Shown: positions 34,645-47,178 of the stretch, one piece after another
Layout: the number at the start of each line of letters is the position of its first letter
Numbering within the stretch: position 1 is the first letter of the stretch
Assembly (NCBI GenBank): GCA_963697355.1
Contig: CAVONV010000023.1
Coordinates: 1,362,400 to 1,426,399, forward strand
Direction of reading: 5' to 3'
DNA: 64,000 bases
Source: an uncultured Acidobacteriota bacterium
Lineage (GTDB): Bacteria; Acidobacteriota; Vicinamibacteria; Marinacidobacterales; DATDRI01
Position numbers and translations under genes: made by a program
The notes under the pieces: model-generated
Databases searched by the model: none
What the model was told of the DNA's origin: nothing
The model's input: only the letters and a program-made list of their open reading frames with translations

Positions 34645-35147
34645 AGCCTATCGAAGCTCCTGATAGGTTTGACGACACTATAGTAGTCACAACTATAGTT
34701 GAATGTCAAGATTTCGTGTCGCACGGGACTGTTGAACGGGCGGAACGCATGTCAAAAATCTCGGCTAACGTCTCAGCCCGAACCCGAGCCTGAGCCCCTG
34801 CCCGAGCCCGCATTCATAAAGCGAGAACAACAGATATCAAAACTGGCGCTGCTGCTTTGTATCGTGCGTTTTTTCAAACGAATGGTCTTTTGTCGGAGTG
34901 AATCGGGCTCGGGCGGGGGAACGGCAACGGGCAAGGGACCAGGTTCTCGCTCCTCGTTGTTGGTAGAACCAGCATGTTCTTTTTGCGCTGTTCAAGGAGT
35001 TCTAAGCCCTGGAAGAAATGACATGCGGATTTTGAGCATGAGCTGCAGATCTGGAACTATGAGTTGCGGATTTTGAGCACGCGCAGATAGCTCACCGAAC
35101 ATTCCCTACCGGCATATGACGGACCTTTTGCTGCCTAAGTACCCCGA

Positions 35148-35299
35148 TTCATAATTACGGTCACGAAACGAACCGAGAACGCCGATCCATCCCGCCTGGC
35201 TGCGTTGCTCGTCGGTCATATATCCCAGATATTATTCACTCCTCGCGCCTTGCCACCCGGGCGCCTCGACGTTCTCGGTTCGTGACCGTAGTTATGAAC
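35148..35299. repeat. Approx. 150-bp element bounded by 34-38-bp imperfect inverted repeats (MITE-like or structured regulatory element)
   Basis: 35148-35185 ttcataattacggtcacgaaacgaaccgagaacgccga against the reverse complement of 35266-35299 (ggttcataactacggtcacgaaccgagaacgtcga): 2 mismatches and one 5-nt indel. Confidence 0.4.
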
Positions 35300-35377
35300 C
35301 AGGGCACTAAGTCATGATCCGAGCTCGGACAGTTCGCGCGCGTTGTCGAGACACGCTGAGATTCCCAAGGCCATTCT

Positions 35378-36319
35378 GTGCGGCTTTTGTTTTCGACGAT
35401 GGAAGCCGGGATACTGGGCTCAATGTGTCCACCACCCGCCATCTCACGACGTCTCGAGACGCCGAGGGATTACAGCCTTCGCCTCACGATGATCGGTTAT
35501 CGGATGGGCTTCTTCGATCCAACGCTTCGGATTGAAGAAGGGAGAGTGCAGCTCGCGATTCGGACGCCGGAGGGACCCGCGAGTCTCGCGATCGAACAGC
35601 AAGAGTCGATAGTGGAAGCTCGGGGATGGGGGACGGGAGCCGAGTGGATTTCTGAGCGCCTCGAAGGGCTTCTTGGTTTCCAGGACGAGCCCCATCGCTT
35701 TCAGCCCTCCGATCGAGTCGTGAGGTCGCTGTGGCAGCAGTTCTCGGGAATGCATCTTCCGAGGCTTCCCCAGGTCTTCGAGCGCGTCATTCAAATCATA
35801 TTGCTCCAGAGGGTGTCGTGGCGAGACGGCTGCACTGCGTGGAAACACCTCGCCTCTCGGTTGGGTGAGGATGCGCCGGGTCCGGTTGACTTGATGGTTC
35901 CTCCCTCTCCGAGAAAGCTCGCCTCGACACCTTATTACGAAATGGTGGACTGTGGTGTGCCTCCTCGGCAGGCTCGGACGATTCAACAAGTTGCCTTTCA
36001 CTCCCGCCGCATCGAAACGGCCGCGGGCCAGGGAGCGGAATCGCTGAGTGAACATCTTTCCGCTATTCCAGGGATCGGCCCTTGGACGATCGGCTACGTT
36101 CGCGGAAGCGCGCTTGGAGATGCGGATGCCATCCTACCCGGTGACTACAACCTTCCCCACACCGTGGCCTGGGTCCTTGCCCGAGAAGCTCGAGCCGACG
36201 AAGAGCGTATGCTGGAACTGCTCGAGCCGTATCGTGGCCACCGCTTCCGGGTCATCCGGCTTGTTTGGATGAAGGGCGCGCGTGCACCACGGCGTGGACC
36301 GAGACGTGGTGGTGCGTGA
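35378..36319 (+). CDS. HhH-GPD base-excision DNA glycosylase (AlkA / 3-methyladenine glycosylase II-like)
   Basis: LLQRVSWRDGCTAWKHL and IPGIGPWTIGYVRGSALGDADAILPGDYNL (helix-hairpin-helix with Gly/Pro loop and catalytic Asp). The exact start is uncertain. Confidence 0.7.
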   Translation: MRLLFSTMEAGILGSMCPPPAISRRLETPRDYSLRLTMIGYRMGFFDPTLRIEEGRVQLAIRTPEGPASLAIEQQESIVEARGWGTGAEWISERLEGLLGFQDEPHRFQPSDRVVRSLWQQFSGMHLPRLPQVFERVIQIILLQRVSWRDGCTAWKHLASRLGEDAPGPVDLMVPPSPRKLASTPYYEMVDCGVPPRQARTIQQVAFHSRRIETAAGQGAESLSEHLSAIPGIGPWTIGYVRGSALGDADAILPGDYNLPHTVAWVLAREARADEERMLELLEPYRGHRFRVIRLVWMKGARAPRRGPRRGGA

Positions 36320-36724
36320 CTACCGCATGCGGTTTTGTTGCCAGTGGGTTTTGACCGGGTACGACTGAATCTTCTCATCCGATGTGACCAACAGGAGATC
36401 ATGTTCAATTGCCTGGCATATGAGCATGCGATCGAACGGATCTCGATGGATCGGAGGCAATTTCGGCAGATGAACCGTTGCGGTCTCTTCCAGCGGTAGC
36501 GTGTCAATTCTGTGGCGTTCGCGCTGCTTGGACACATAGAAGTATGGTGCTTCTGGTAAGTCGAGTCGACCGAGCTGGTGCTTGACGAAGACCTCCCACA
36601 CGGAAATGACGCTCAACCATACACTGTTGTCCGGGGAACGTATGTCATCAGCCGTTGTGTCGGGAAGCCTGGCATCTGCTGTGATAAACCAGAGGAAAGT
36701 GGACGTGTCGAGAAGCAGTCTCAA
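36320..36724 (-). CDS. vapC: PIN-domain toxin VapC
   Basis: MRLLLDTSTFLW...DPFDRMLICQAIEHDLLLVTSD. Its ATG overlaps the stop of the upstream antitoxin (ATGA). Confidence 0.8.
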   Translation of the reverse strand: MRLLLDTSTFLWFITADARLPDTTADDIRSPDNSVWLSVISVWEVFVKHQLGRLDLPEAPYFYVSKQRERHRIDTLPLEETATVHLPKLPPIHRDPFDRMLICQAIEHDLLLVTSDEKIQSYPVKTHWQQNRMR

Positions 36725-36957
36725 CCTTCGAAATCCTTGAGTACGGTTTCTGGAAGAGGCTCATCGAAATCGTGCGGAACCTCAAAGTCTCCAGCACATA
36801 GTCCCATCGGTCGGGGTGAGTCTAGCTTTCTGGAAATGGGCCGGAGCTCGGCCACCGGCTGGTTCCGGCGCGCCAAAATGACCGTTTCTCCGGCCTCAAC
36901 CCGCTTGATGTATTCGGTCAACCGAGCCTTTGCGTCCGCGATATTAACGATCGTCAT
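36721..36957 (-). CDS. vapB: Phd/YefM-type antitoxin (78 aa) cognate to VapC
   Basis: MTIVNIADAKARLTEYIKRVEAGETVILARRNQPVAELRPI. A 4-nt overlap with vapC is the classic type II TA arrangement. Confidence 0.8.
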   Translation of the reverse strand: MTIVNIADAKARLTEYIKRVEAGETVILARRNQPVAELRPISRKLDSPRPMGLCAGDFEVPHDFDEPLPETVLKDFEG

Positions 36958-37046
36958 GATTTTATTATAGTCATATTTATAGTCATGTCAATGACCATAT
37001 TGGGGGGGCGATGATTGGATGTTCTTCTGTTCGGGCACGAGGGAGC

Positions 37047-37207
37047 ACACCGTGGCCCGGGACCTGGCTCGAGAAGCTCGAGCCGACGAGGAGTGTCTGC
37101 TGGAGTTGCTCGAGCCTTATCGCGCACACCGTTTCCGGGTCATCCGCCTCGTTTGGATGACGGGAGCGCGTGCGCCACGGCGTGGACCGCGACGTAACGG
37201 CCCGTGA
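37047..37207 (+). pseudogene. Duplicated 3' tail (~160 bp) of the AlkA-like gene
   Basis: About 85% nt identity to 36157-36319. It encodes ...HTVARDLAREARADEECLLELLEPYRAHRFRVIRLVWMTGARAPRRGPRRNGP against AlkA ...HTVAWVLAREARADEERMLELLEPYRGHRFRVIRLVWMKGARAPRRGPRRGGA. Confidence 0.65.
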
Positions 37208-37209
37208 TG

Positions 37210-37644
37210 TTAGTTTCCGCCTTTTCCGAAATGCCTCTCAAATAGATCGGCTTGATCAGGTCCAAGTATTTCAGCTCTTTCCGTGGCGCGACGTTCCGCT
37301 GCCCGTTCGTGACTAACGAGCCTCCGAATCAAGGCATTGTATTGCCCGTGCGCGGTATCGGTGTTCGACCGGCTGAGCAGTTGATAGAGCCGATGTTCAG
37401 GAGAGAGAATCAGGTTGTCGGGAATCGACACGGCCTCGGGAAGCGGTTCATCGAAATCGTGAGGGACCTTGAATTCCCCAGCGCACAGTCCCATCGGTAG
37501 AGGTGAGGTTGTCTTTCGCGAAATGGGCTGTAGCTTGGCAACTGGCTGGTTCCGGCGCGCGAGAACGAACGTCTCTCCGGTTTCCACGCGCTTGATGTAC
37601 ACGCTCAGGCGAGCTTTGGCGTCCGCGATATTGACGATCTTCAT
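37210..37644 (-). CDS. Paralogous Phd/YefM-type antitoxin with 70-aa C-terminal extension that looks like a decayed, fused VapC remnant (orphan antitoxin)
   Basis: First ~70 codons are ~80% nt-identical to vapB at 36721..36957. After PEAV it continues SIPDNLILSPEHRLYQLL... (compare VapC ...RSPDNSVWLSVISVWEV...). No intact PIN gene follows. Confidence 0.55.
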   Translation of the reverse strand: MKIVNIADAKARLSVYIKRVETGETFVLARRNQPVAKLQPISRKTTSPLPMGLCAGEFKVPHDFDEPLPEAVSIPDNLILSPEHRLYQLLSRSNTDTAHGQYNALIRRLVSHERAAERRATERAEILGPDQADLFERHFGKGGN

Positions 37645-37667
37645 AGTTGTATTGTAGTCATACCAAA

Positions 37668-39902
37668 TCAGACTAGAAGCGGAATAGGCGGGTGAACTTC
37701 AACACAAGGCTCCGGTTCTCGAGTTGTGGGGGTCGCCCGAGCGCGGTGTTGCGCCCATCGGTGTAGACCACGTAGAGATCGCTTCCGGGCTGGTACTCCC
37801 AGCGGAAACGGATGTTGGTGGAGAAGGCCGAGCTCTCCGAGTTGTATTGGACGAGAGCGGCGATGAAGGCGCGGGGCGAGAACGTATAGTTGGCGCGAAT
37901 GCGGTACACCTGCGCGACGAAACTCCCTTCTTCCAAATCCACCCAGTTGACGGAAAAGCCGGGCTCGAGTGAAAGCTGTGGTGTCACCTCGATCCGGCCC
38001 ATCTCGTAACCCACCTCGGCCCGATTGCCGCTGTAGAAGCTGCCGTATCCGGCGCTCAGACCACCGGAAACCCGGCGTTGCGGTCCCAAACGGTAGGAAA
38101 GCTTCCACGGATTGATAGGTGTAACCTCCTGTCGGGATGATGATGCCGTCCGTGATCTCGAACTCCTCGTCCAAGAAGTCGAAACTGTGGCGGTAGGTCA
38201 ATTCCAGATTGTCACCACTCTCGAAATCGGGCCCCGTCTCGACCTCGATCTCGCGGGTCTCCAGCACACCTCCGTTGTTGGTGTAGTAGTCGATGCTTCC
38301 CTCGAGGCTGTACCTCCGGATCGCCTCGACGGAGGGGACTCTCGGGCTGAAGCGAAGTCGTGCCGCACTTTTTTGGAAATCATCCCGTCTCAAAAAGCCG
38401 ACTTCGGGATTGAAGTTTTCCTCGACCACGAGCCTCTCGACCTCGACGCCATAGCGGTCTCCGCCGTACTCGAAGCTGGCCCTATAACTCGAGTCGTTCC
38501 CCTCGTAGTCGGATGTCGAGCTTCGCGCCCAGTAGGCGTTGATATTCACGTTTTGAAAGAAAGTGAAATTACCGTCGATACCGAACACATTATTGGAGCC
38601 GGATGTCTCAACGGACTCGGACCGGTAGGTCCCGACAAAGCCGATGTTGCTGCGGCGGAAAACGTCGCGCTTGACGCGTAACACACCAAAATTGGTGGTC
38701 GGAATCTGCGAACCCACAGAATCGGTCTGCATGGCGAGAGCGCCGATCGAATAAGCTCCGGCGCGGCCCGTTATCCTACCGCCGGCATTGATCGGCACGG
38801 CCACATTTACATCATCGGCCTCATCGAGCCCGATACGACGGCTGAAGAACATGATGGGAGTGTCGGAGTGTCCACCCCAGGCACCGGTCTCCCGTCCACC
38901 GAAGTTGAAGATGCCTTGGCCTTCGAGAAAGAAATCGCGCTTTTCCGGGAAGAAGAGACTGAATCGAGTGAGGTTGACTTGCTCCTCGTCGTTCTCGACC
39001 TGAGCGAAATCGGTGTTGTAGGTGAAATCGGTGGTAAGACTCCGCGTCAGCCCATACTTGACGTCGAAGCCCAGGTCGGCGTCGAAGTCGTTCTCGTAGG
39101 GCTCGTCTGCCGTGAGGTCCGTGCGGAGGCCGGAGGTCACGTAAGGTTTGAGCTCGAGGTTGAGCGATCGAGAAGGAGGCTCGATGCCCTCCAGCGTAGC
39201 CGCTTGCGATAGCTTCAGAAGTCCATCGTGACGGAAAGCCGCGGCAATGGGTGCCAAATGGCTCGTCTCGTTCTTCCACTGCACGATGCGCTGAAAATTC
39301 ACCCCCCACGTCTGGGTACCACCCGGAAGGTAACGTAAAGACTTGAAAGGGATTTCCATTTCCACCGTCCACCCTTGGGCGAATCGTCCGGTCTTGACTT
39401 TCCATACGGTGTTCCAGTCGCTGTTGGTGTTGGACTCGTCGGTTACCTGCGCGTCATAGAGCGCACCCAAAGGATTGGTGTGAAACAGAAACCCGTTCCG
39501 CCGGTCGTGAAAGGTGTCGAGGATGATCGCGAAGTTCTCGTTGTGATCGATGTTGTGAGAGTCCCGGCGCATCTCGTTGGCCACCATCCGTTCCGGGTGG
39601 CTGTCCCAGCAGCGGGCCGAGACGTAGAGACTGTCCTGACTATAGAAAAACCAAACGTCCGTATCTTCGGTCGCGGGTTGGCCTTCCAGCGGCTCCTGCT
39701 GAACGAAACCGTTGGCCGGATCGAATTTCGCGTAGATCTCATCATCGAGCTTACCGTCGAGATCCAAAGGTTCATCGATGCGAAACGCGGTCATCGTGAT
39801 TCGGCCGGTCTCGTCCCGAGAGAGTAGATCTCGCGCCTCATCCGCCCAAACCGCTCGACAGAGTGTGAGCACCACCAGAATTGCAGCATACCGGGCAATC
39901 AT
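37668..39902 (-). CDS. DUF5916 / carbohydrate-binding-family-9-like outer-membrane protein; frameshift near 38100 separates the last ~135 codons
   Basis: N-terminal signal peptide and ...DGKLDDEIYAKFDP...HNENFAIILDTFHDRRNGFLF... The true C-terminus (…YRIRANYTF…LKFTRLFRF) is in ORF 37673..38089 in another frame. The tail of the 744-aa ORF is out-of-frame sequence. Confidence 0.65.
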   Translation of the reverse strand: MIARYAAILVVLTLCRAVWADEARDLLSRDETGRITMTAFRIDEPLDLDGKLDDEIYAKFDPANGFVQQEPLEGQPATEDTDVWFFYSQDSLYVSARCWDSHPERMVANEMRRDSHNIDHNENFAIILDTFHDRRNGFLFHTNPLGALYDAQVTDESNTNSDWNTVWKVKTGRFAQGWTVEMEIPFKSLRYLPGGTQTWGVNFQRIVQWKNETSHLAPIAAAFRHDGLLKLSQAATLEGIEPPSRSLNLELKPYVTSGLRTDLTADEPYENDFDADLGFDVKYGLTRSLTTDFTYNTDFAQVENDEEQVNLTRFSLFFPEKRDFFLEGQGIFNFGGRETGAWGGHSDTPIMFFSRRIGLDEADDVNVAVPINAGGRITGRAGAYSIGALAMQTDSVGSQIPTTNFGVLRVKRDVFRRSNIGFVGTYRSESVETSGSNNVFGIDGNFTFFQNVNINAYWARSSTSDYEGNDSSYRASFEYGGDRYGVEVERLVVEENFNPEVGFLRRDDFQKSAARLRFSPRVPSVEAIRRYSLEGSIDYYTNNGGVLETREIEVETGPDFESGDNLELTYRHSFDFLDEEFEITDGIIIPTGGYTYQSVEAFLPFGTATPGFRWSERRIRQLLQRQSGRGGLRDGPDRGDTTAFTRARLFRQLGGFGRREFRRAGVPHSRQLYVLAPRLHRRSRPIQLGELGLLHQHPFPLGVPARKRSLRGLHRWAQHRARATPTTREPEPCVEVHPPIPLLV

Positions 39903-40074
39903 GTCGTTTGTTCGACCTCCACCTGGAATTGTCGGAGATGAGGCGCCCGGTGTGGTTAAGAGAACGTAAAATCTTGGTACGGATAGAATAGGTAATCTCC
40001 ATCTTCAGCGGCGGGTCGAAGGTGAAGGGTTTCAATTCGGCGATTCGTTCTGATTTGACGAAGTGCCCCCACGG

Positions 40075-40804
40075 TTAGCGGCGGAGAATGCGCCGAGGGA
40101 ATGAGGATGTGCCAACTTCTCCTACGAATTTGTATCCGAGTCCCCGTACCGTCAGGATGAATCGCGGATTGTGGGGATCGGGCTCGAGCTTCTGCCGCAG
40201 CCATGCGATGTGAACGTCGACCGTCCGGGTCGACGGCATGGCATCGACACCCCAGACTGCGTCTAGGAGATCGTTTCGCGACAGGAGGACGTCCTGGTTC
40301 TCGATGAGATGCCGCAGGAGCTGATACTCGAGCGCGGAGAGCTTCACGGCTACACCGTTTCGAACAACATTCGCACTCACGAAGTTCACCTCCACCTCGC
40401 CGAAGCGAAACTCCATTATGCGCGGTTCAGGTGAAGACCGCCTCAGCAAGGCCTTGATACGTGCCAAGAGCTCGATGAACTCGAACGGTTTGGTTAGATA
40501 GTCGTCCGCTCCGAGGTCGAGTCCTTCCACCTTGTCCGTCACCTGAGCGCGTGCGGTGAGCATCAGGATAGGTGTGTCGATGCCGCCGTGACGAAGCGCC
40601 AGGCACACGTCGAAGCCGCTTTTCTTCGGCAGCATGACGTCGAGGAGGATCAGATCGTAAGTGTGATCCTTGGCCCGTCGGAGACCAGCGTCTCCGTCTC
40701 GTTCACAATCGACCCGGTACCCTTCGCTGCCCAAACGGTCGGATAGGGCAAGGACCAGGGACGCGGTCGTCCTCGACGAGGAGAATCCGTTCCCTACGTG
40801 TCAT
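40075..40804 (-). pseudogene. OmpR-family response regulator with frameshift near its 5' end (~40760)
   Basis: ATG at 40802-40804 gives MTRRERILLVEDDR, then the frame is lost. The remainder (..ASLVLALSDRLGSEGYRVDCERDGDAGL...LTARAQVTDKVEGLDLGADDYLTKPF...wHTH) is in the 219-aa ORF in another frame. Confidence 0.6.
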
Positions 40805-42457
40805 TCGCGGACTCCGCCCTGGGCAAGCGAACGGTGATCATCGTTCCCTTGCCGAGCTCGCTCTCCGCGGTCACCCGACCGCCTTGTGCCTCGAGAATTC
40901 TCTTCACGATGCTCAACCCCAACCCGCTTCCTTCGATTTGTTGTTCTCGGGCATTACTCCCCCGATAGAAAGGCTCGAAGATACGGGGGAGCTCCGAGGC
41001 ATGGATTCCGCACCCCTCGTCTTCCACGGCGACTTGCACGTGCTTGTCTCCGTGTGTGGCGCGGATCCGGATGGTGCTTTTCTCGGGAGAGAACTTCACC
41101 GCGTTGGTGAGGATGTTCTTAATGGTCATCTTCAGCGAACGTGGATTTCCGAGGACCGGCGGCAGACCTTCCGAAAAGTCCATCTCCACCTCGGTCGCTC
41201 GGTTGGTGGTCCAGGCTTTTGTCGACTCGATGGCGTCCTCGATTGCCTCCACGACGTCCAGCGAGCGCATCTCGTAAGGATTGGCCCGACTCCATTCGAG
41301 AAAAGAGCAGGACCCGCTCGAGCATGTCGCCGAGACGACGCGTCTCCCCGTGTATGGCTCTTCCGTACTCGCGTGCGCGCTCTGAGATCCTGGATGACCC
41401 CATCCGCCAGGTTCTCGCTCAGGGATGAGATCCCGGCTAGAGGCGTCCTAATCTCGTGAGAGACCCCGGCCACGAACTCCACCTGCTGGCGCGCGAGAGC
41501 GTTTGCGCGTCGTGTTGTCGCGACCAACATGGCCATGCTAACGCCCAATAAGACCAACGCACCGAATGCCACTGCGATGTTGCGGAAACGCGTGGTCGCA
41601 ACGGCCTCTCTCCAGAGAACCGGCTCGGTGCCGGATGAGAAATTTCCATCTTTGTGTATTGTCGCGCCGACTGCGAAGACGCAGTCCGAACAAACCCCCC
41701 TCCTCGTCGGGCTCAGTGAAGTCTTTCGGCGTCAGTCCAGGTTCGGAGCGGTAAATGACCACATCCGGGCGGGTTGCGTCGACGATGAGAACGTCGTAGT
41801 CCAGTTCGTCGCCGGTCGCGAAGTACTCTCGGATGCGCTCCGGAAGGATTCTGCTCCGCAAGGCGTCACGGTCGAGCGTCACGGCTACGCAGCCGTCTCC
41901 CAAGACGAGCAGCGCCGGCGCATCCGGTTGCAGTTCGAGGCCACTGGCCGAAGGCTCGGAATACCGGCCTCCCCGTTCGTCCTCGTCTCGTCTTCTCTCG
42001 GAGTTGGATCGATGGTCTCGCCGGTCGAAATACGCAAGTAAATCGTCTTCGATGGGGCTCAGCCAATCCGGCTGTTTCACGGTTTCGAGGCCTTGGCCCG
42101 CTGGATCGAGCCTCTGGATGCTGAGTTTTCTTCGGTGCCCCCCCGGAATGATCCAGTAGATACTGTCAACGAGCTCGGGATGAGACGCTGCACTTGCCCA
42201 TTCCTCGTACGCTTCGGTGAGCCTATCCTCTTCGGAACCGTTGCCAGAAAGGCGTGCAGCGGAACTCGTCGTAGAGGCGCGTGAGATCGCGGTCGAAGTC
42301 GCTGCAGAACCGTTCGGTGGACCAATGCAACGTCGAGCGCATCCGATTGTGCTCCAATTCGCTCAGCGTCCCCAACCACCGATATTGAAGCGAATGCCAG
42401 CGCCGGCAATAGGGCGGCCGTCAAAAAAACGGCAAAGACCGTTGCGCGCGATTTCAC
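40794..42457 (-). pseudogene. Sensor histidine kinase split across at least five frame segments (TM/sensor, HisKA, HATPase_c)
   Basis: HATPase_c is in ORF 40794..41270. The linker is in 41119..41403. TM2 plus HisKA (FVAGVSHEIRTPLAGI) is in 41132..41572. Putative sensor domain and TM1 are in 41538..42080 and 42077..42457. The frame goes 1 to 2 to 1 to 0 to 2. Confidence 0.5.
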
Positions 42458-42575
42458 GCATCAAGCATAGATCATTCGAGCGGGCAAATCGTTAAGAGAA
42501 CGTTAAGGAGAGAACAAACTCTCATTCAGGTGTTGATGATGTGCCAAACGACCAACCCTGACGGAATGCGGTTCG

Positions 42576-43181
42576 TTACTCGATGAAGCCGTACTTCTTC
42601 ATCACCTTTCGGACCTCTTTTGCCGTATTCGCAACGGTTTTTGCCGCGTCTTTGGGATTTTTGTGTTGGGTGAGACCGGACCACACGAGTTTTCCGTCGC
42701 TGGCGTCATAAATCGTCGTCTCGACACCAACGAACCGATCCTCTCGGTAGTAGCCGGGAGAATAGACGACCGGGTAGGCCCAGGAGTAGTACCCCCAAAA
42801 AGAGTAGTAGGGCGCAGGGTAGCTCCCCGAAACGTAGCTGACCTCTTTCTGGTCGTAGACGGGTCGCATGACAATGACACCGTTCACACCCGAGTCGGCG
42901 ACGGCTTTTTTGAGCTCGCTCTCGCTCACGAGCTGTTCGGAGGGTATCACCCTGTAGGCGGCGATCGCCTCGGCTTTCTTGATTTGCTTCACCATCTCAT
43001 CTTCGCCGGCCTGACGAACGAATTTATCTTGGACGAGAACGAGGGCCATGACTTTGTCGAACTTGAGGGGTCCCCTCTCGGGGTAAACCCAGTTCTTGAC
43101 CATTTGGGTCGATGCACAACCAAAAGTGACGAGGACGAGTAATGACAGTGAGGTTAGACGCAACATGTTTGTTTTCATCAA
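42576..43181 (-). CDS. Putative lipoprotein (201 aa) of unknown function
   Basis: Signal peptide with Cys (LLVLVTFGCAST). Confidence 0.55.
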   Translation of the reverse strand: MMKTNMLRLTSLSLLVLVTFGCASTQMVKNWVYPERGPLKFDKVMALVLVQDKFVRQAGEDEMVKQIKKAEAIAAYRVIPSEQLVSESELKKAVADSGVNGVIVMRPVYDQKEVSYVSGSYPAPYYSFWGYYSWAYPVVYSPGYYREDRFVGVETTIYDASDGKLVWSGLTQHKNPKDAAKTVANTAKEVRKVMKKYGFIE

Positions 43182-43218
43182 TGCTCCTTGTGTTTGCCGG
43201 CGTCACCCGACAGCGGGT

Positions 43219-44607
43219 CTAGAGCGATCCGCCTCTTGTTCGTTTGACGAATCGGCCATGACCAAGCTTTCCCACGAACTTGCCGTTCTCGGCAACAACG
43301 GCGCCGCGACTGAGTGTCACGTCGGGAAAACCGTACATCTCGATGCCCTGGTAGGGTGACCAGTCACAATTTGTTTCCATCTGTCGGTAGTCGATGGTCC
43401 GGCTCTTTTCGGGATCGATGATAGCGAGGTCCGCATCGGCGCCTACAGCAATGGTGCCTTTTTGGGGGTAGAGGCCGAAGAGCTTGGCAGGGTGCGTAGC
43501 GATCAACGAAACGAGATGGTTCAAGCTGAACTTCTTCTCTCGGTATCCGAAGGTAAAGATGCTCGGCAGCAAGGTCTCGACTCCGGGCATCCCAAAAGGT
43601 ATGCGGGTGAAATCTCCTTCCCACATGGCCTTCTGAGTCTTGTCGAACGTGCAGGTATCGGTGGCGACGATGGGGACCTCGCCGTCGACGAGTCCTTTCC
43701 AGAGCCGCTCGCTGTCGTAAGGTTTCTTGACCTGAGGGCAGGTCGCGAAAAGATGCCCCTCGGAACCCTTGAACACCTCGTCGTTGAGCAAGAGGTATTG
43801 TGGACAGGTCTCGCAGTCGACCGGGACGCCATTCTCCTTGGCCGCTTTAACCAAGTCGGCGCCTTCCCCCGTGGACATGTGCACGATGTAGAGGTGACCG
43901 CCGGTGACCTCGGACCACTTGATGGCTCGCTGGATGGCTTCCGACTCGGTGAACGAGGGCCGGGAGAGCGTGTGTGCGTAGGCGCCCCATTTTTCTTTGT
44001 CTTTGAGGTATTTATCGATCAGGACGTTGAGCACGCCTTCGCTTTCGGCATGCACCATGATCATGCCGTCGTAGTCTTTAGCGGTAGCAAGAGCGGAATA
44101 AAGAGCCGCATCATCCGATTGCCAGCCCTCGCGTTTATAGATCATGAACATTTTGAACGACGGGATCCCGAAATCGATGACGTCCGGTAGCTCGGCGGCA
44201 ATCTCGTCACTCCACTTGGTAATGATGCTATGCAGAGAGTAATCCACACAGACTTTCGGCTCGGCTGCCGCCATCCGATTCTGGATCCCTTCCATCAGGC
44301 CTTTGTCCGCATCCTGGGTGGCGAAGTCGATGAGCGTCGTGACACCGCCTGCAGCCGCGGCTTTGGTGCCGGTGGTGAAGTCATCGGCGGAGACGGTGCC
44401 GCAGAAAGGTAGCTCGAGGTGAACATGGACGTCGATACAGCCGGGGAGAACGAATTTGCCCTTCGCATCGATGAATCTGGTGCCGTTGAGTGGAGTTAGG
44501 TTCTGGCCCAAGGCGACGATCTTCTCTCCCGTGATCCCAACGTCAGCGACAAAGGAATCCGATGCTGTAACGACCGTTCCGCCTTTCACGACCGTGTCAA
44601 AACTCAT
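43219..44607 (-). CDS. Dihydropyrimidinase / D-hydantoinase (cyclic amidohydrolase)
   Basis: GCIDVHVHLE metal-binding start, carboxylated-Lys region (FKMFMIYK), and HAE...DTCTFD blocks. 462 aa. Confidence 0.85.
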   Translation of the reverse strand: MSFDTVVKGGTVVTASDSFVADVGITGEKIVALGQNLTPLNGTRFIDAKGKFVLPGCIDVHVHLELPFCGTVSADDFTTGTKAAAAGGVTTLIDFATQDADKGLMEGIQNRMAAAEPKVCVDYSLHSIITKWSDEIAAELPDVIDFGIPSFKMFMIYKREGWQSDDAALYSALATAKDYDGMIMVHAESEGVLNVLIDKYLKDKEKWGAYAHTLSRPSFTESEAIQRAIKWSEVTGGHLYIVHMSTGEGADLVKAAKENGVPVDCETCPQYLLLNDEVFKGSEGHLFATCPQVKKPYDSERLWKGLVDGEVPIVATDTCTFDKTQKAMWEGDFTRIPFGMPGVETLLPSIFTFGYREKKFSLNHLVSLIATHPAKLFGLYPQKGTIAVGADADLAIIDPEKSRTIDYRQMETNCDWSPYQGIEMYGFPDVTLSRGAVVAENGKFVGKLGHGRFVKRTRGGSL

Positions 44608-44844
44608 GGCGTGGGCCTCCCTTCACTTTTCTGCCAAGCCGAAGTCGAATTAAAGGGATGATAGTGAAAGGTCTCACACGATGCAACCCATCGGGGCATC
44701 CATCGGCAGGAGGGGCGGCGTGAGCCAGAGAATCGGGTTGATTTCCTGCCCGAGGTGAGAAAGACTGGTGTCACGTTGTTCTTGCCGACCGTTCCATTTG
44801 AGGGGGCGGCAGAGGACCCTTCCACTCTTACAAGTGAGGTTGTC

Positions 44845-45849
44845 ATGAGCAAACCGCCATTGGAGTTTGCAATCACCTTTAAGGGCGACATGACCCCCGA
44901 GCGGACCGTCGCTCTCGCAAAAAAGGCTGAGGATTTGGGCTTCACCTCTGTTTGGACCTTCGACTCCCACGTACTGTGGAAGGATCCCTATCCGATGCTG
45001 ACGTTGCTCGCGGCCAACACGGAGAAAGTCCGCCTCGGTACACTGGTGACCAATCCCGGGGTTCGCGACTGGACGGTGACGGCCAGTACGTTGGCCACCA
45101 TGAACATCATCTCGGGCGGGCGCATGGACATGGGAATCGGGCGCGGAGATAGCTCGCGGCGAGTGCTCGGTCGACGTCCGAACAACGTCGCCACCCTCAA
45201 GGAGTCCGTGGAGGTCATCAGAAATCTGGTCGCCGGCGAAGAGGTCGATTTCGAAGATGGAAAGGTTCAGCTCAAGTGGGCCAGCGGCAAGCTGCCGGTG
45301 TGGGTGGCGGGGTACGGACCGAAAGCACTCCGCGTCATCGGCGAGGTCGGCGACGGTGCCGTCCTACAGATTGCCGACACCTTCTTGATCAAATGGTTCA
45401 CCGAGACGATTCGAGAAAATGCCGAACGAGTGGGCAGGAAAGGCTCCGACGTCAAGATCATGTCTGCGGCACCGGTCTGGGTGTCCGATGACATTGCTAA
45501 GTGTCGAGAACAGGTCCGATGGTTTCCCGCCATGGTGGGAAACCACGTGGCGGATTTGGTCGAGCGCTATCATTCGGGAGAGCTCCCGGTTGAGCTCACG
45601 ACCTACATCAAAGGGCGCAAAGGGTACGACTATCAGGAGCATGCCGACAAAGATGCCGAGCATCTCGACTTCATCACCGACGATGTGATCGATCGGTTCA
45701 CTATCGTCGGGCCTCCTGACGCCCACCGGCGAAAGCTCGAGGAGTTGATCGAGGTCGGAGTCGATCAGTTCAACATCTATTTGATGAGCGGAGACGAGGA
45801 GCGCACGCTCGACGTCTACGGTGAGGAGATCATCCCCGCGTTCCGTTGA
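44845..45849 (+). CDS. LLM-class (luciferase-like) flavin/F420-dependent oxidoreductase
   Basis: Start MSKPPLEF (GAGGT SD). TIM-barrel LLM pattern ...FTSVWTFDSHVLW...GRMDMGIGRGDS... Confidence 0.7.
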   Translation: MSKPPLEFAITFKGDMTPERTVALAKKAEDLGFTSVWTFDSHVLWKDPYPMLTLLAANTEKVRLGTLVTNPGVRDWTVTASTLATMNIISGGRMDMGIGRGDSSRRVLGRRPNNVATLKESVEVIRNLVAGEEVDFEDGKVQLKWASGKLPVWVAGYGPKALRVIGEVGDGAVLQIADTFLIKWFTETIRENAERVGRKGSDVKIMSAAPVWVSDDIAKCREQVRWFPAMVGNHVADLVERYHSGELPVELTTYIKGRKGYDYQEHADKDAEHLDFITDDVIDRFTIVGPPDAHRRKLEELIEVGVDQFNIYLMSGDEERTLDVYGEEIIPAFR

Positions 45850-45861
45850 TCGACGATCCGA

Positions 45862-47178
45862 CTAATCCCGCAGGTCCACCTCGCTGAAGGCCTGATCGAA
45901 TTTCTTCAGTGCGTCATCGACATCAGCCTTGGTGATGTTGAGCGCTGGGCTGATACGTAAGGCATTGCCGAAAAGGCCGCCTTTGCCGACGATGAGACCG
46001 TTGTCCTTGGCTTTTTCCATGAACATGGCCGTCGCCTTGGTTGCGGGAGCCTTCCCCTCTCCGACGAGCTCCAAAGCTTGCATGAGTCCCTTACCCCGCA
46101 CATCTCCGATGAGGGGATACTTCTTCGCCAGCTCCTCGAGCCCTGCTCTCAGATAGTCGCCAACGACGCGGGCGTTTTCTCTGAGATTCTCCTTTTCGAT
46201 GACGTCGATGACGGCTCGCGCCGCGGTCATGCTGACCGGGTTGCCGCCAAAGGTGGAGATGTGATTCCCCTTGATGCTCTCGGCGATGTCGGAACGCGTG
46301 ACGGTAGCTCCAATCGGAGCCCCGTTAGCCATACCTTTGGCAAACGTCATGATGTCCGGTTCGACGCCCCAGTGCTCGATCCCGAACCAATAGTCTCCGG
46401 TTCTGCCCCAGCCGGTTTGAACTTCGTCGCCAATGAAGAAGCCACCGTACTTCTTGACGATTTCCACGGCGATTTTGAAGTACTCCGGAGGTGGAGTGAT
46501 GAAGCCTCCTACACCTTGGATCGGCTCGGCAATGAACGCTGCAAGCCGGCCCGAGGTGGTGGTCTGTATCACCTCTTCGATGTCGCGAGCGCAGCGGATA
46601 TCGCACGATGGGTACGTCTGGCCGAACGGGCATCTGTAGCAGTAGGCGTTGGCGACATGTTTGATACCCGCCACGTGGGTGCCGCCCAGGCGCCAGCTCG
46701 CGTGGCCGGTCATGGACATGGCCAGGAGCGACCTGCCGCTGTAGCTATGGCGCAGCGCCAGAATCTCTCCGGACCCGCCGTAGAGCTGAGCCATCAAGAT
46801 GGCGGTCTCGTTGGCCTCCGTTCCCGAGTTGGTGAAAAAGCTCTTATCGAGGTCGCCGGGCGTGATTTGAGCCAGCTTCTCCGCCACCGAGACCATGGGC
46901 TCGTTGGGATAAAGCGTGGACACGTGCTGGAGTGTGTCCAGCTGTTCCTTCATCCGTGAGGTCACTTCGGGGTGGCAATGGCCCACACTGACGGTGAGGA
47001 TGCCGCCAAAAAAGTCGAGGTACTCCCGACCCTCGGCATCATACAGGTAGTTTCCCTTGGCTCGGACGAACGGCAGAGGGTGAGAGAAGTAGTTGGCAAC
47101 CGAGGGGAAAACGTACCGGCGATGCTTGTCGACGATTTCTTCACCTTTCATGGGAACGCGTTTCGTATCTGTACTCAT
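45862..47178 (-). CDS. Class-III (omega) PLP aminotransferase (beta-alanine/GABA aminotransferase-like)
   Basis: TNSGTEANETAI, IGDEVQTGWGRTGDYW, TFAKGMANG are class-III AT signatures. Confidence 0.85.
   Translation of the reverse strand: MSTDTKRVPMKGEEIVDKHRRYVFPSVANYFSHPLPFVRAKGNYLYDAEGREYLDFFGGILTVSVGHCHPEVTSRMKEQLDTLQHVSTLYPNEPMVSVAEKLAQITPGDLDKSFFTNSGTEANETAILMAQLYGGSGEILALRHSYSGRSLLAMSMTGHASWRLGGTHVAGIKHVANAYCYRCPFGQTYPSCDIRCARDIEEVIQTTTSGRLAAFIAEPIQGVGGFITPPPEYFKIAVEIVKKYGGFFIGDEVQTGWGRTGDYWFGIEHWGVEPDIMTFAKGMANGAPIGATVTRSDIAESIKGNHISTFGGNPVSMTAARAVIDVIEKENLRENARVVGDYLRAGLEELAKKYPLIGDVRGKGLMQALELVGEGKAPATKATAMFMEKAKDNGLIVGKGGLFGNALRISPALNITKADVDDALKKFDQAFSEVDLRD

What the first reader, a model, noticed from the sequence alone, without database searches (positions are those of the whole stretch)
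36157..37667. Tandem duplication of an [alkA 3' tail - vapC - vapB] unit; second copy has lost its toxin and fused the remnant to the antitoxin
Unit 1 (36157-37046) is the last ~160 bp of the AlkA-like gene, a convergent PIN toxin (vapC) and a Phd/YefM antitoxin with the classic ATGA overlap. Unit 2 (37047-37667) repeats the alkA tail (~85% identity, encoding ...LEPYRAHRFRVIRLVWMTGARAPRRGPRR) and an antitoxin ~80% nt-identical to vapB. In place of vapC, the antitoxin ORF runs on for 70 extra codons (SIPDNLILSPEHRLY...) that faintly resemble VapC residues ~29 onward (RSPDNSVWLSVISVWEV...). This is a snapshot of TA-module duplication followed by toxin decay, leaving an orphan and possibly cross-neutralising antitoxin. 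Both antitoxin promoters carry TATAGTCAT / TGTAGTCATA-like direct repeats (36962-36990, 37650-37662), candidate operator sites.
Basis: seen in the sequence. Interest (0 to 1): 0.55.

Follow-up and report, generated by a model that had tools for sequence, protein, structure and literature searches.

The report
Intact vapBC beside a toxin-antitoxin wreck
Next to an ordinary, intact vapBC toxin-antitoxin pair lies a 144-codon gene stitched by deletions from three gene fragments (a vapB copy, a small uncharacterised gene "X" and its DUF6036 nucleotidyltransferase partner), so it is not a decayed VapC and this is ordinary gene decay in a variable toxin-antitoxin hotspot.

Summary
The two repeats are real. 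The alkA 3' tail (36158-36319 vs 37046-37207) is 85% identical over 162 nt. The antitoxin 5' part plus 18 nt upstream (36743-36975 vs 37430-37662) is 79% identical over 233 nt.

1. The 72-codon extension of antitoxin 2 does not resemble VapC at DNA level or in any of six frames.
- It is the 3' 45 codons of a small uncharacterised gene family, "X" (tblastn E 3e-20). X is always the upstream, overlapping partner of a DUF6036 nucleotidyltransferase gene.
- After that come two scraps of the 3' end of DUF6036 itself.
- A relative (L047) still has DUF6036 stop-to-stop with alkA tail 2.

2. This is not a head-to-tail tandem duplication.
- What lies between and after the repeats is unrelated.
- In related genomes the two "units" sit at the same site separately: DUF4136-vapBC-alkA in some, DUF4136-X-DUF6036-alkA tail in another.
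- The window carries an extra 5.6 kb, with tail 2 at its end.

The best reading is a variable toxin-antitoxin islet beside alkA, holding an intact vapBC with a perfect consensus promoter next to a deletion-riddled vapB2-X-DUF6036 relic. This is ordinary decay. The X-DUF6036 pair itself is unstudied.

The parts
35378..36319 (+). AlkA-like HhH-GPD DNA glycosylase gene (313 codons). Its last 54 codons (36158-36319) are 'tail 1'.
   Evidence: phmmer to solved AlkA structures 2jhj/1diz, E 6e-9 to 1e-6. Pfam HhH-GPD E 5e-5, below the curated cut-off. Orthologues in L033, L034, L043, L046, L049 and L001.
36320..36724 (-). vapC, an intact PIN-domain toxin gene (134 codons, TTG start). It is convergent with alkA, and the two stop codons abut.
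   Evidence: Pfam PIN E 1.1e-11 over residues 4-122. Copies at 90% identity or more in other contexts. The last ~5 codons (36323-36338) lie outside the core shared with relatives.
36721..36957 (-). vapB, a Phd/YefM-type antitoxin gene (78 codons). Its stop overlaps the vapC start as TTGA.
   Evidence: Pfam PhdYeFM_antitox E 8.6e-10. Sequence read.
36964..36991 (-). vapBC promoter: TTGACA-16 nt-TATAAT (12 of 12), ending 6 nt before the ATG, so the transcript is probably leaderless. It is overlapped by two ATGACTATA direct repeats (+ strand TATAGTCAT at 36966-36974 and 36978-36986) and a GTCAT-N4-ATGAC inverted repeat. These are candidate operators.
   Evidence: Promoter scan. Sequence. The block is almost invariant in L033, L034, L042, L046, L047 and L048, although the flanks differ.
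36999..37045 (.). 47-nt joint of unknown origin between the vapBC cassette and alkA tail 2. It marks the left end of the 5.6 kb that short-form relatives lack.
   Evidence: Homology to L042, L043, L046 and L034 stops at 36998-37002. The joint is present in L047 and L048. It shows no similarity to alkA upstream sequence.
37046..37207 (+). alkA tail 2: a displaced, promoterless copy of the last 54 codons of an alkA gene (85% identical to tail 1). The 62-codon ORF 37019-37207 is probably a spurious gene call.
   Evidence: In L047 the orthologous tail 2 (93%) carries 2-nt and 3-nt insertions.
37213..37293 (-). Two scraps of the 3' end of a DUF6036 nucleotidyltransferase gene. Codons ~134-150 are read out of frame by the chimera. 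After a 43-nt deletion come the last ~9 codons (...FGKGGN, stop at 37210-37212). About 405 nt that include the catalytic N-terminal part are gone.
   Evidence: Contiguous 91% homology of window 36651-37231 to L047, whose DUF6036 ORF ends ...EEIFGKGGN*. Piecewise alignment to L049 and L050. Frame-shifted peptide APRKELKYLDLIKP vs P0242 EPRKALEYLSLIEP scores z = 7.0, reached by 0 of 500 shuffles.
37294..37428 (-). The 3' 45 codons (residues ~43-87) of 'family X', the small gene that normally precedes and overlaps DUF6036.
   Evidence: tblastn E 3e-20 at 82% identity to P0003. phmmer found 207 hits, best E 2e-10. Full-length X-DUF6036 pairs in L035, L038, L039, L049 and L050.
37429..37644 (-). 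vapB2: the first 72 codons of a vapB paralogue (81% amino-acid and 79% nucleotide identity to vapB), fused in frame to the X fragment. The whole chimeric ORF is 37210-37644 (144 codons).
   Evidence: dN/dS against vapB is 0.13. A full-length 78-aa version precedes intact X and DUF6036 in a JGI contig. A truncated pseudogene without a start codon is present in L034.
37645..37667 (-). Residual vapB2 upstream region: a TACAAT -10-like box and one ATGACTACA repeat. The -35 box and second repeat are replaced by the end of the DUF5916 gene.
   Evidence: Sequence. The scan finds no promoter-like site here on the - strand.

Best explanation
The stretch is a variable toxin-antitoxin islet convergent with an alkA-like gene in an Acidobacteriota-type genome. 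It holds one working module and one wreck.

(a) Working module: vapBC (36320-36991).
- It is a standard type II module: a Phd/YefM antitoxin and a PIN toxin.
- The two genes are translationally coupled by a TTGA overlap.
- They are driven by a perfect sigma-70 consensus promoter that probably gives a leaderless transcript.
- Operator-like repeats overlap the promoter, which suggests the usual autorepression by the antitoxin-toxin complex.

(b) The wreck: the 144-codon 'extended antitoxin' (37210-37644).
- It is a deletion-made chimera of three genes that stood in a row in the ancestor: vapB2 (78 codons), X (~90 codons) and DUF6036 (~175 codons). DUF6036 was convergent with an alkA 3' end.
- One ~230-nt deletion joined vapB2 codon 72 in frame to X codon ~43.
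- A ~405-nt deletion removed DUF6036 from its start to about codon 134.
- A further 43-nt deletion put the last 9 DUF6036 codons back in frame.
- The putative nucleotidyltransferase partner is therefore destroyed and X is halved.

Origin of the repeats.
- The repeated alkA tail and antitoxin arose because two alternative occupants of the same site were brought side by side. They did not arise from a local head-to-tail duplication of one unit followed by toxin decay.
- The two occupants are a vapBC allele and a vapB2-X-DUF6036 allele, each ending in alkA sequence.
- The likely route is recombination anchored in alkA with an illegitimate joint at 37045/37046.

Shown versus inferred.
- Shown: the composition of the chimera, the deletions, the variant structures in relatives, the promoter consensus.
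- Inferred: the order and mechanism of the rearrangements, autoregulation, and that the chimera is mostly a relic. Its N-terminal 72 residues still carry the DNA-binding fold and almost all of the VapC-binding tail, so some residual antitoxin activity towards VapC cannot be excluded.
For: Chimera composition:
- vapB2 part: tblastn 81% identity over 72 residues, E 3e-35.
- X part: E 3e-20, 207 family hits, alignment A6.
- DUF6036 scraps: (z = 7.0).

X and DUF6036 are obligate neighbours with a 13-nt overlap in every locus read: L035, L037, L038 and L039-41, and L049 and L050.

Intact gene order Phd (78 aa), X (91), DUF6036 (173), then a convergent gene, in JGI 3300042731.

Tail 2 sits stop-to-stop (2 nt apart) with an intact DUF6036 3' part in L047 and with full-length DUF6036 in L050. 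In L049 the full-length DUF6036 is stop-to-stop with an alkA that runs on past the tail boundary.

Not a tandem duplication:
- The middles do not align.
- The right flanks are unrelated.
- L042, L043 (95% identical flanks) and L046 (85%) join the DUF4136 gene (window 42577) directly to the vapB promoter (window 36998-37002), so the window has 5.6 kb extra.
- L050 has DUF4136-X-DUF6036-alkA tail instead.

Tail divergence:
- 16 synonymous vs 9 nonsynonymous differences, omega 0.17, binomial p 1.6e-4 against neutrality.
- The 85% identity falls within the 83-90% seen between orthologous alkA tails of relatives.
- Tail-2-specific changes are 2 synonymous to 6 nonsynonymous, as expected for decay after detachment.

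Other points:
- Promoter.
- L034 has lost 36999-37506 and the vapB2 start codon, which shows the relic is dispensable.
- No other vapB2::X fusion was found in 5.8 billion proteins or in JGI metagenomes.
Against: - The ORF stays open for 144 codons through three junctions. By chance alone that is somewhat unlikely and could hint at selection for an expressed product.
- vapB2 against vapB has omega 0.13, so vapB2 was functional for most of its history.
- The order of events (insertion of 5.6 kb versus deletion in the short-form relatives) rests on parsimony over a handful of short metagenomic contigs.
- Tail 2 is not clearly closer to the DUF6036-adjacent alkA of L049 (84.6%) than to tail 1 (84.6%). 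An old local duplication of the tail followed by gene conversion or replacement of the middle is therefore not strictly excluded.
- The genome looks like a long-read MAG with frameshifted genes, so single-base details (the 1-nt frame change in the DUF6036 scrap) could be sequencing errors. The large deletions cannot be.
- No expression or activity data exist.
Confidence: 0.75

Rival explanations
1. One reading: a local tandem duplication of [alkA tail - vapC - vapB]. Copy 2 then lost vapC, and the antitoxin ORF now runs into the decayed toxin.
For: Both repeats lie in the same order and orientation, 687-888 nt apart. There is no toxin next to vapB2. Tail-2-specific substitutions look neutral, 2 synonymous to 6 nonsynonymous.
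Against: - The extension shows no VapC similarity in any frame. It matches X (E 3e-20) and DUF6036 (z 7.0) instead.
- Tail 2 is joined to DUF6036 in L047 and L050.
- The right flanks of the two copies are unrelated.
- Overall tail omega is 0.17. That is too low for a copy that was non-coding from birth, where about 57% nonsynonymous changes are expected and 36% are observed.
Confidence: 0.07
2. An old tandem duplication of tail-vapC-vapB did occur. Later the X-DUF6036 pair inserted into or replaced vapC2 at the alkA/vapC junction, which is demonstrably an insertion hotspot. Deletions followed.
For: - The alkA/vapC junction carries different inserts in relatives: a PAF-AH gene in L034, its remnant in L042/L043, and an HNH gene in L046.
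- A vapB2 gene stands directly upstream of X in two lineages (window), but not in unrelated X-DUF6036 loci.
- The similar divergence of the tails and the antitoxins (dS 0.50 and 0.88, overlapping errors) fits one event.
Against: - It still requires the copy-1 right flank to be unrelated to the copy-2 right flank.
- It requires 5.6 kb to be lost independently, at the same DUF4136 stop codon, in the L042/43, L046 and L050 lineages.
- The low tail omega argues that tail 2 was coding for much of its divergence.
Confidence: 0.15
3. The 144-aa chimera is a selected, functional hybrid antitoxin or regulator. Its VapB-type DNA-binding and VapC-binding part is joined to the C-terminal helices of X. It buffers VapC or a DUF6036 toxin encoded elsewhere.
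For: - The ORF is open through all junctions.
- Residues 44-72 are nearly identical to the VapC-binding tail of VapB.
- A -10-like box and one operator repeat are retained.
- The X helices 49-86, the best-conserved part of the family, are retained.
Against: - The fusion is unique in 5.8 billion proteins and in JGI metagenomes.
- The sister lineage L034 has inactivated it.
- The -35 box and second operator repeat are lost.
- The last 27 codons are frame-scrambled DUF6036 sequence.
- There is no DUF6036 gene in the 64-kb window.
Confidence: 0.12

Closest known systems
Type II VapBC toxin-antitoxin modules with Phd/YefM-type antitoxins
   Same: Unit 1 has every sequence hallmark: an upstream antitoxin with a Phd/YefM N-terminal domain, a 4-nt overlap with a PIN-domain toxin gene, and a strong promoter overlapped by repeats. 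The same cassette occurs at 87-93% nucleotide identity in different neighbourhoods, as is usual for mobile TA modules.
   Different: Nothing notable. The toxin start is TTG, the transcript is probably leaderless, and the last ~5 vapC codons are window-specific because a breakpoint lies inside the gene's 3' end.
Orphan or degenerate antitoxins and TA pseudogenes in genomic islets
   Same: vapB2 lacks a cognate toxin, is truncated and fused, has lost half of its promoter, and is further degraded in a sister lineage.
   Different: The fusion partner is not its own toxin. It is the antitoxin-position gene (X) of a second, unrelated two-gene module, and the ORF ends in scraps of that module's nucleotidyltransferase gene. 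This is a three-gene chimera.
Nucleotidyltransferase-fold TA systems (MenA-MenT type VII, AbiEi-AbiEii type IV, MNT-HEPN)
   Same: X-DUF6036 is a small upstream gene that overlaps a ~175-aa nucleotidyltransferase-fold gene. It is scattered in unrelated neighbourhoods. The DUF6036 model's best solved matches include the MenT1 toxin (8an5_B, probability 0.94, TM 0.54).
   Different: There is no sequence match to any solved structure, no PADLOC model and no paper that mentions DUF6036. X has no detectable structural relative. Which partner is the toxin, or whether the pair is a TA system at all, is untested. In the window only fragments remain.
Replacement-type flexible genomic islets / homology-facilitated illegitimate recombination
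   Same: Conserved flanking genes (alkA, DUF4136) bracket alternative cassettes in related genomes. A composite allele retains a displaced fragment of the anchor gene at an illegitimate joint.
   Different: The mechanism is inferred only from end-point structures. No recombinase, repeats or clear microhomology were identified at the 37045/37046 joint.

Membership tests
Type II VapBC (unit 1, 36320-36991) | Toxin with a PIN domain | tested here: met
   Pfam PF01850 E 1.1e-11, 45.8 bits against a cut-off of 23.6, residues 4-122. Acidic residues at D6, E44, D98 and D115 were read from the translation by eye and not aligned formally.
Type II VapBC (unit 1, 36320-36991) | Small antitoxin gene immediately upstream, overlapping the toxin gene | tested here: met
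   vapB 36721-36957 and vapC 36320-36724 overlap by 4 nt (TTGA). Pfam PhdYeFM_antitox E 8.6e-10.
Type II VapBC (unit 1, 36320-36991) | Autoregulated promoter with operator repeats | tested here: inconclusive
   A 12-of-12 consensus promoter is overlapped by two 9-nt direct repeats and an inverted repeat, and the block is conserved in six relatives. Binding was not tested.
Type II VapBC (unit 1, 36320-36991) | Toxicity of VapC and neutralisation by VapB | not testable with these tools
   Needs expression assays.
VapB-type antitoxin (chimera 37210-37644) | Phd/YefM N-terminal domain | tested here: met
   Pfam E 1.5e-9, NCBIfam phd_fam E 2.8e-6. 81% identical to VapB over 72 residues.
VapB-type antitoxin (chimera 37210-37644) | Cognate PIN toxin gene directly downstream, or its recognisable remnant | tested here: not met
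   No VapC similarity in six frames. No second PIN hit in the window.
Tandem duplication of one unit | Head-to-tail copies homologous along their whole length up to the junction | tested here: not met
   Only two blocks (162 and 233 nt) are shared. The middles and right flanks are unrelated. Relatives carry the two halves separately.
X-DUF6036 gene pair | Full-length X (~87-91 aa) overlapping the start of a ~175-aa DUF6036 gene | tested here: not met
   Only X residues ~43-87 and DUF6036 codons ~134-150 plus the last ~9 codons remain. The window therefore holds a wreck, not a member.
MenT/AbiEii-like nucleotidyltransferase toxins (for DUF6036 of relatives) | Nucleotidyltransferase fold close to solved MenT toxins | tested here: inconclusive
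   The AF2 model has pLDDT 94. Foldseek gives 8an5_B at E 0.08, probability 0.94, TM 0.54, and 5uvd at E 7e-3. The profile finds no PDB sequence match.

The most novel reading that the evidence does not exclude
The most novel reading has two versions.

1. The vapB2::X fusion is a selected hybrid antitoxin. It would couple a VapB DNA-binding and VapC-binding module to the conserved C-terminal helices of X, and so cross-wire two toxin-antitoxin systems.

2. More broadly, the 3' end of alkA serves as a recurrent docking point. Integrase-less TA cassettes (vapBC, X-DUF6036) would be swapped and stacked there, each carrying along a piece of alkA.

Either version would make this locus a natural example of modular recombination between TA systems. 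It would also draw attention to the unstudied, widespread X-DUF6036 pair as a candidate MenT-like toxin system.
Probability: 0.1. Interest if true: 0.6.

Novelty: new member of a known kind. Interest (0 to 1): 0.3.

Why it matters
For annotation:
- The 144-aa 'PhdYeFM antitoxin' and the 62-aa ORF are relics of gene decay. They should not be read as a novel long antitoxin or as a gene.

For biology:
- The locus is a well-resolved example of how TA modules pile up and erode in a small replacement islet between conserved genes.
- At least five structural variants were recovered from related populations.

The one item of wider interest is indirect. The wreck led to an uncharacterised, widespread two-gene module: X plus a DUF6036 nucleotidyltransferase. 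The pair has no literature, no defence-system model and only weak structural similarity to the MenT toxins. It would be worth testing as a toxin-antitoxin or defence pair, using an intact copy from another genome.

Tried and rejected
- VapC remnant: global DNA alignment of 36320-36742 against 37208-37429, and six-frame Smith-Waterman against VapC with shuffles, gave nothing above chance.
- 5' end of DUF6036: I first guessed that the last 27 codons came from the 5' end of DUF6036. The alignment to L035, L038 and L039 was weak and Pfam found nothing. I rejected the idea once L047, L049 and L050 showed the codons come from the 3' end.
- Family annotation for X: none in Pfam, NCBIfam or PADLOC. 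No PDB match by sequence or fold. No paper mentions DUF6036.
- Origin of filler sequences: the 47-nt joint 36999-37045, the 57-nt filler in L034 and the divergent last 30 nt of L033 match nothing I hold.
- Second vapB2::X fusion: none in the protein database or in JGI metagenomes.
- Other copies in the window: no intact X, DUF6036 or second PIN gene.
- Base composition: it does not single out the extra 5.6 kb (GC 0.58 against 0.57 for the flanks). Only vapBC is slightly lower, at 0.52.
- Polarising the tail substitutions with L034 and L001: only partly informative, because synonymous sites are saturated against L001.
Full report
**Observation.** The two repeats are real.
- The repeat finder gives 36158-36319 vs 37046-37207 (162 nt, 85%) and 36743-36975 vs 37430-37662 (233 nt, 79%). 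An ungapped recount gives 137/162 and 185/233.
- The left edge of the tail repeat is sharp. Identity falls to background just before CACACCGTGG at 36158/37046.
- Gene identities hold. The 313-codon ORF 35378-36319 matches solved AlkA glycosylases (E 6e-9 to 1e-6). 36320-36724(-) is a PIN domain. 36721-36957(-) and the first ~42 residues of 37210-37644(-) are Phd/YefM.
- A separate Logan assembly of run ERR12037370 has the same gene order, with ORFs of 306, 134, 78, 62 and 144 aa.
- One small correction: the vapB/vapC overlap is TTGA with a TTG start, not ATGA.

**The extension is not VapC.**
- The segments between the repeats, 36320-36742 (423 nt, vapC) and 37208-37429 (222 nt), do not align.
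- Smith-Waterman scores of VapC against all six frames of 37195-37445 sit inside the shuffle distribution.
- A full HMMER scan of 1.84 billion representatives with the 74-residue extension found 207 proteins at E up to 0.001, the best at 2e-10. All match through the C-terminal ~50 residues of ~90-115-aa proteins.
- Most hits of the whole-ORF search were in fact to this part.
- The family, which I call X, has the consensus ...LPG.ELI..GL.DL..G.ET..ALLVSIGAPRLRRLG..P....SPEHRLY.LL....D.AHSQYNALIRRLVSFERAAEC.
- X has no Pfam, NCBIfam or PADLOC model. It has no PDB relative by sequence or fold.
- tblastn places X residues 45-88 of P0003 on window 37425-37294 (82% identity, E 3e-20). VapB residues 1-72 fall on 37644-37429.

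**X is the partner of DUF6036.**
- In every locus read, X directly precedes a ~175-aa DUF6036 (PF19502, 'nucleotidyltransferase of unknown function') gene and overlaps it by 13 nt.
- These loci are L035, L037, L038 and L039-41, and L049 and L050. The neighbourhoods are otherwise unrelated.
- No paper in the library mentions DUF6036.
- An AlphaFold model of DUF6036 (pLDDT 94) finds only weak matches. The best are a nucleotidyltransferase-like protein (5uvd) and the MenT1 toxin (8an5_B, probability 0.94, TM 0.54).
- The pair looks like a TA-type module, but that is unproven.

**The rest of the chimera.**
- L047 is a 902-nt ENA contig. It is 91% identical to window 36651-37231, so it carries vapB, the joint and tail 2. 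It then continues into the intact 3' part of a DUF6036 gene that ends ...EEIFGKGGN*, 2 nt from the stop of tail 2.
- The window ORF ends ...ERHFGKGGN*.
- Piecewise alignment to the complete modules of L049 and L050 shows that window 37291-37244 corresponds to DUF6036 codons ~134-150. A 43-nt gap follows, and 37235-37205 is the last codons plus the intergenic 2 nt.
- Read in the DUF6036 frame, the first scrap gives APRKELKYLDLIKP against EPRKALEYLSLIEP (z = 7.0, 0 of 500 shuffles as good). The chimera reads this scrap out of frame.
- The 144-codon ORF is therefore vapB2(1-72), then X(~43-87), then scrambled DUF6036(134-150), then DUF6036(last 9 codons).
- About 405 nt of DUF6036, including the conserved YFTGG...DVD core, are gone.
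- A JGI contig (3300042731, no DNA available) shows the undeleted order: Phd antitoxin 78 aa, an 87-nt gap, X 91 aa, DUF6036 173 aa, then a convergent gene. The vapB2-X fusion is thus a ~230-nt in-frame deletion.
- No second instance of the fusion exists in the protein database or in JGI metagenomes.

**Tandem duplication?** Several results argue against a simple one.
- Only the two blocks are shared. The 70 nt after copy 1 of the antitoxin repeat are unrelated to the sequence after copy 2.
- Tail 2 belongs with DUF6036, not with a vapC. DUF6036 is stop-to-stop with an alkA fragment in L047 and L050, and with an alkA that runs on past the tail boundary in L049.
- Relatives show the two halves as alternatives at one site.
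  - L042 and L043 (95% identical to window 42577-46520) and L046 (85%) join the DUF4136 gene directly to the vapB promoter, with breaks at window 36998-37002 and 42577.
  - L050 has DUF4136, X, DUF6036 and a 34-codon alkA tail.
  - The window, L034, L047 and L048 have the composite, with 5.6 kb extra (36999-42576). That extra stretch holds tail 2, the chimera, a DUF5916/CBM9 gene, a two-component system and two ORFs.
- The tails differ at 16 synonymous and 9 nonsynonymous sites (omega 0.17; p 1.6e-4 against neutrality).
- Their 85% identity lies within the 83-90% seen between orthologous alkA tails of relatives.
- The six amino-acid changes at positions conserved in all alkA genes are specific to tail 2 (2 synonymous to 6 nonsynonymous), and L047's tail 2 has indels. 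This fits decay after detachment.
- I therefore favour juxtaposition of two diverged alleles of the islet, each carrying alkA sequence, over in-situ duplication.
- An old duplication later overwritten by X-DUF6036 cannot be excluded. The alkA/vapC junction is itself an insertion hotspot: a PAF-AH gene in L034, its internally deleted remnant in L042/L043, and an HNH gene in L046.

**How it works.**
- vapBC looks fully functional.
- On the minus strand, 36991-36964 is TTGACA-16-TATAAT (12 of 12). It ends 6 nt before the vapB ATG, so the mRNA is probably leaderless.
- Two ATGACTATA repeats 12 nt apart and a GTCAT-N4-ATGAC palindrome overlap the promoter. The block is almost invariant in six relatives whose flanks differ.
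- vapB2 keeps only a TACAAT box and one repeat. The -35 region is replaced by the end of the DUF5916 gene, and no promoter is predicted.
- In L034 the vapB2 start codon is lost and everything from 36999 to 37506 is deleted. The relic is therefore dispensable.
- The chimera retains residues 44-72, which are nearly identical to VapB's toxin-binding tail. Weak cross-neutralisation of VapC remains possible but untested.

**Caveats.**
- Several genes in the window and in L034 are frameshifted: the DUF5916 gene near 38100, the histidine kinase, and vapBC in L034. This suggests long-read indel errors. Single-base features are therefore uncertain, but the deletions of 43-405 nt are not.
- The evolutionary order rests on short metagenomic contigs.

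**Verdict.**
- It is refuted on 'VapC remnant' and unsupported on 'tandem duplication of one unit'.
- This is ordinary TA-islet decay and of modest interest.
- The uncharacterised X-DUF6036 pair is the only lead of wider value.

Noticed in passing
L035:3001-3779, L038:3001-3779, L039:3001-3788, L049:~130-923, L050:~95-891 (remnant at window 37213-37428): A widespread, unannotated two-gene module: an ~87-91-aa all-helical protein ('X') whose gene overlaps by 13 nt the start of a ~175-aa DUF6036 nucleotidyltransferase-fold gene. It is found in Acidobacteriota, Actinomycetota and others, in unrelated neighbourhoods. There is no literature and no PADLOC model. The DUF6036 model weakly resembles the MenT1 toxin.
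   Followed up: partly
window 37668-39902 (-), around 38090-38115: The DUF5916/CBM9 outer-membrane-like gene is frameshifted. The long ORF ends in out-of-frame junk, while ORF 37673-38089 carries the real C-terminus (...LKFTRLFRF). The histidine kinase at 40794-41572 is also split into overlapping ORFs. These are either pseudogenes or long-read indel errors.
   Followed up: no
window 35120-35320: A ~200-nt element with nested inverted repeats (35132-35185 / 35266-35314) lies just upstream of alkA. It is 99-100% conserved in L033 and L034. A 45-nt piece (35179-35223) recurs upstream of X in L049. It may be a small mobile or structured element.
   Followed up: partly
window 36964-36991 (-): A perfect sigma-70 consensus promoter (TTGACA-16-TATAAT) ends only 6 nt before the vapB start codon. 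This implies a leaderless vapBC transcript.
   Followed up: partly
window 36307-36339; L034:5281-6681; L043:2635-3124; L046:1516-2628: The few bases between the alkA stop and the vapC stop are an insertion and deletion hotspot. L034 has a full PAF-AH-family gene, L042/L043 have an internally deleted remnant of it, L046 has an HNH gene, and the window has nothing. A terminator-like hairpin (36313-36331) spans the two stop codons in the window.
   Followed up: partly
L034:1-3115: Three consecutive genes, two with tyrosine recombinase (Phage_integrase) domains, lie about 1.3 kb upstream of alkA in the 92-94% identical relative. In the window that position is occupied by PadR and a MacB-type ABC permease. 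The region upstream of alkA is therefore also variable.
   Followed up: no
L033:7607-7636 (window equivalent 37005 onward): A contig that is 99.9% identical to the window over 7.6 kb departs from it at the G-run at 37005 for its last 30 nt, then ends. This is either a further structural variant in that population or an assembly break at the repeat.
   Followed up: no
window 35018-35084: A 26-nt direct repeat (ATGACATGCGGATTTTGAGCATGAGC, 85% identical, 41 nt apart) lies in the intergenic region between the PadR gene and alkA.
   Followed up: no
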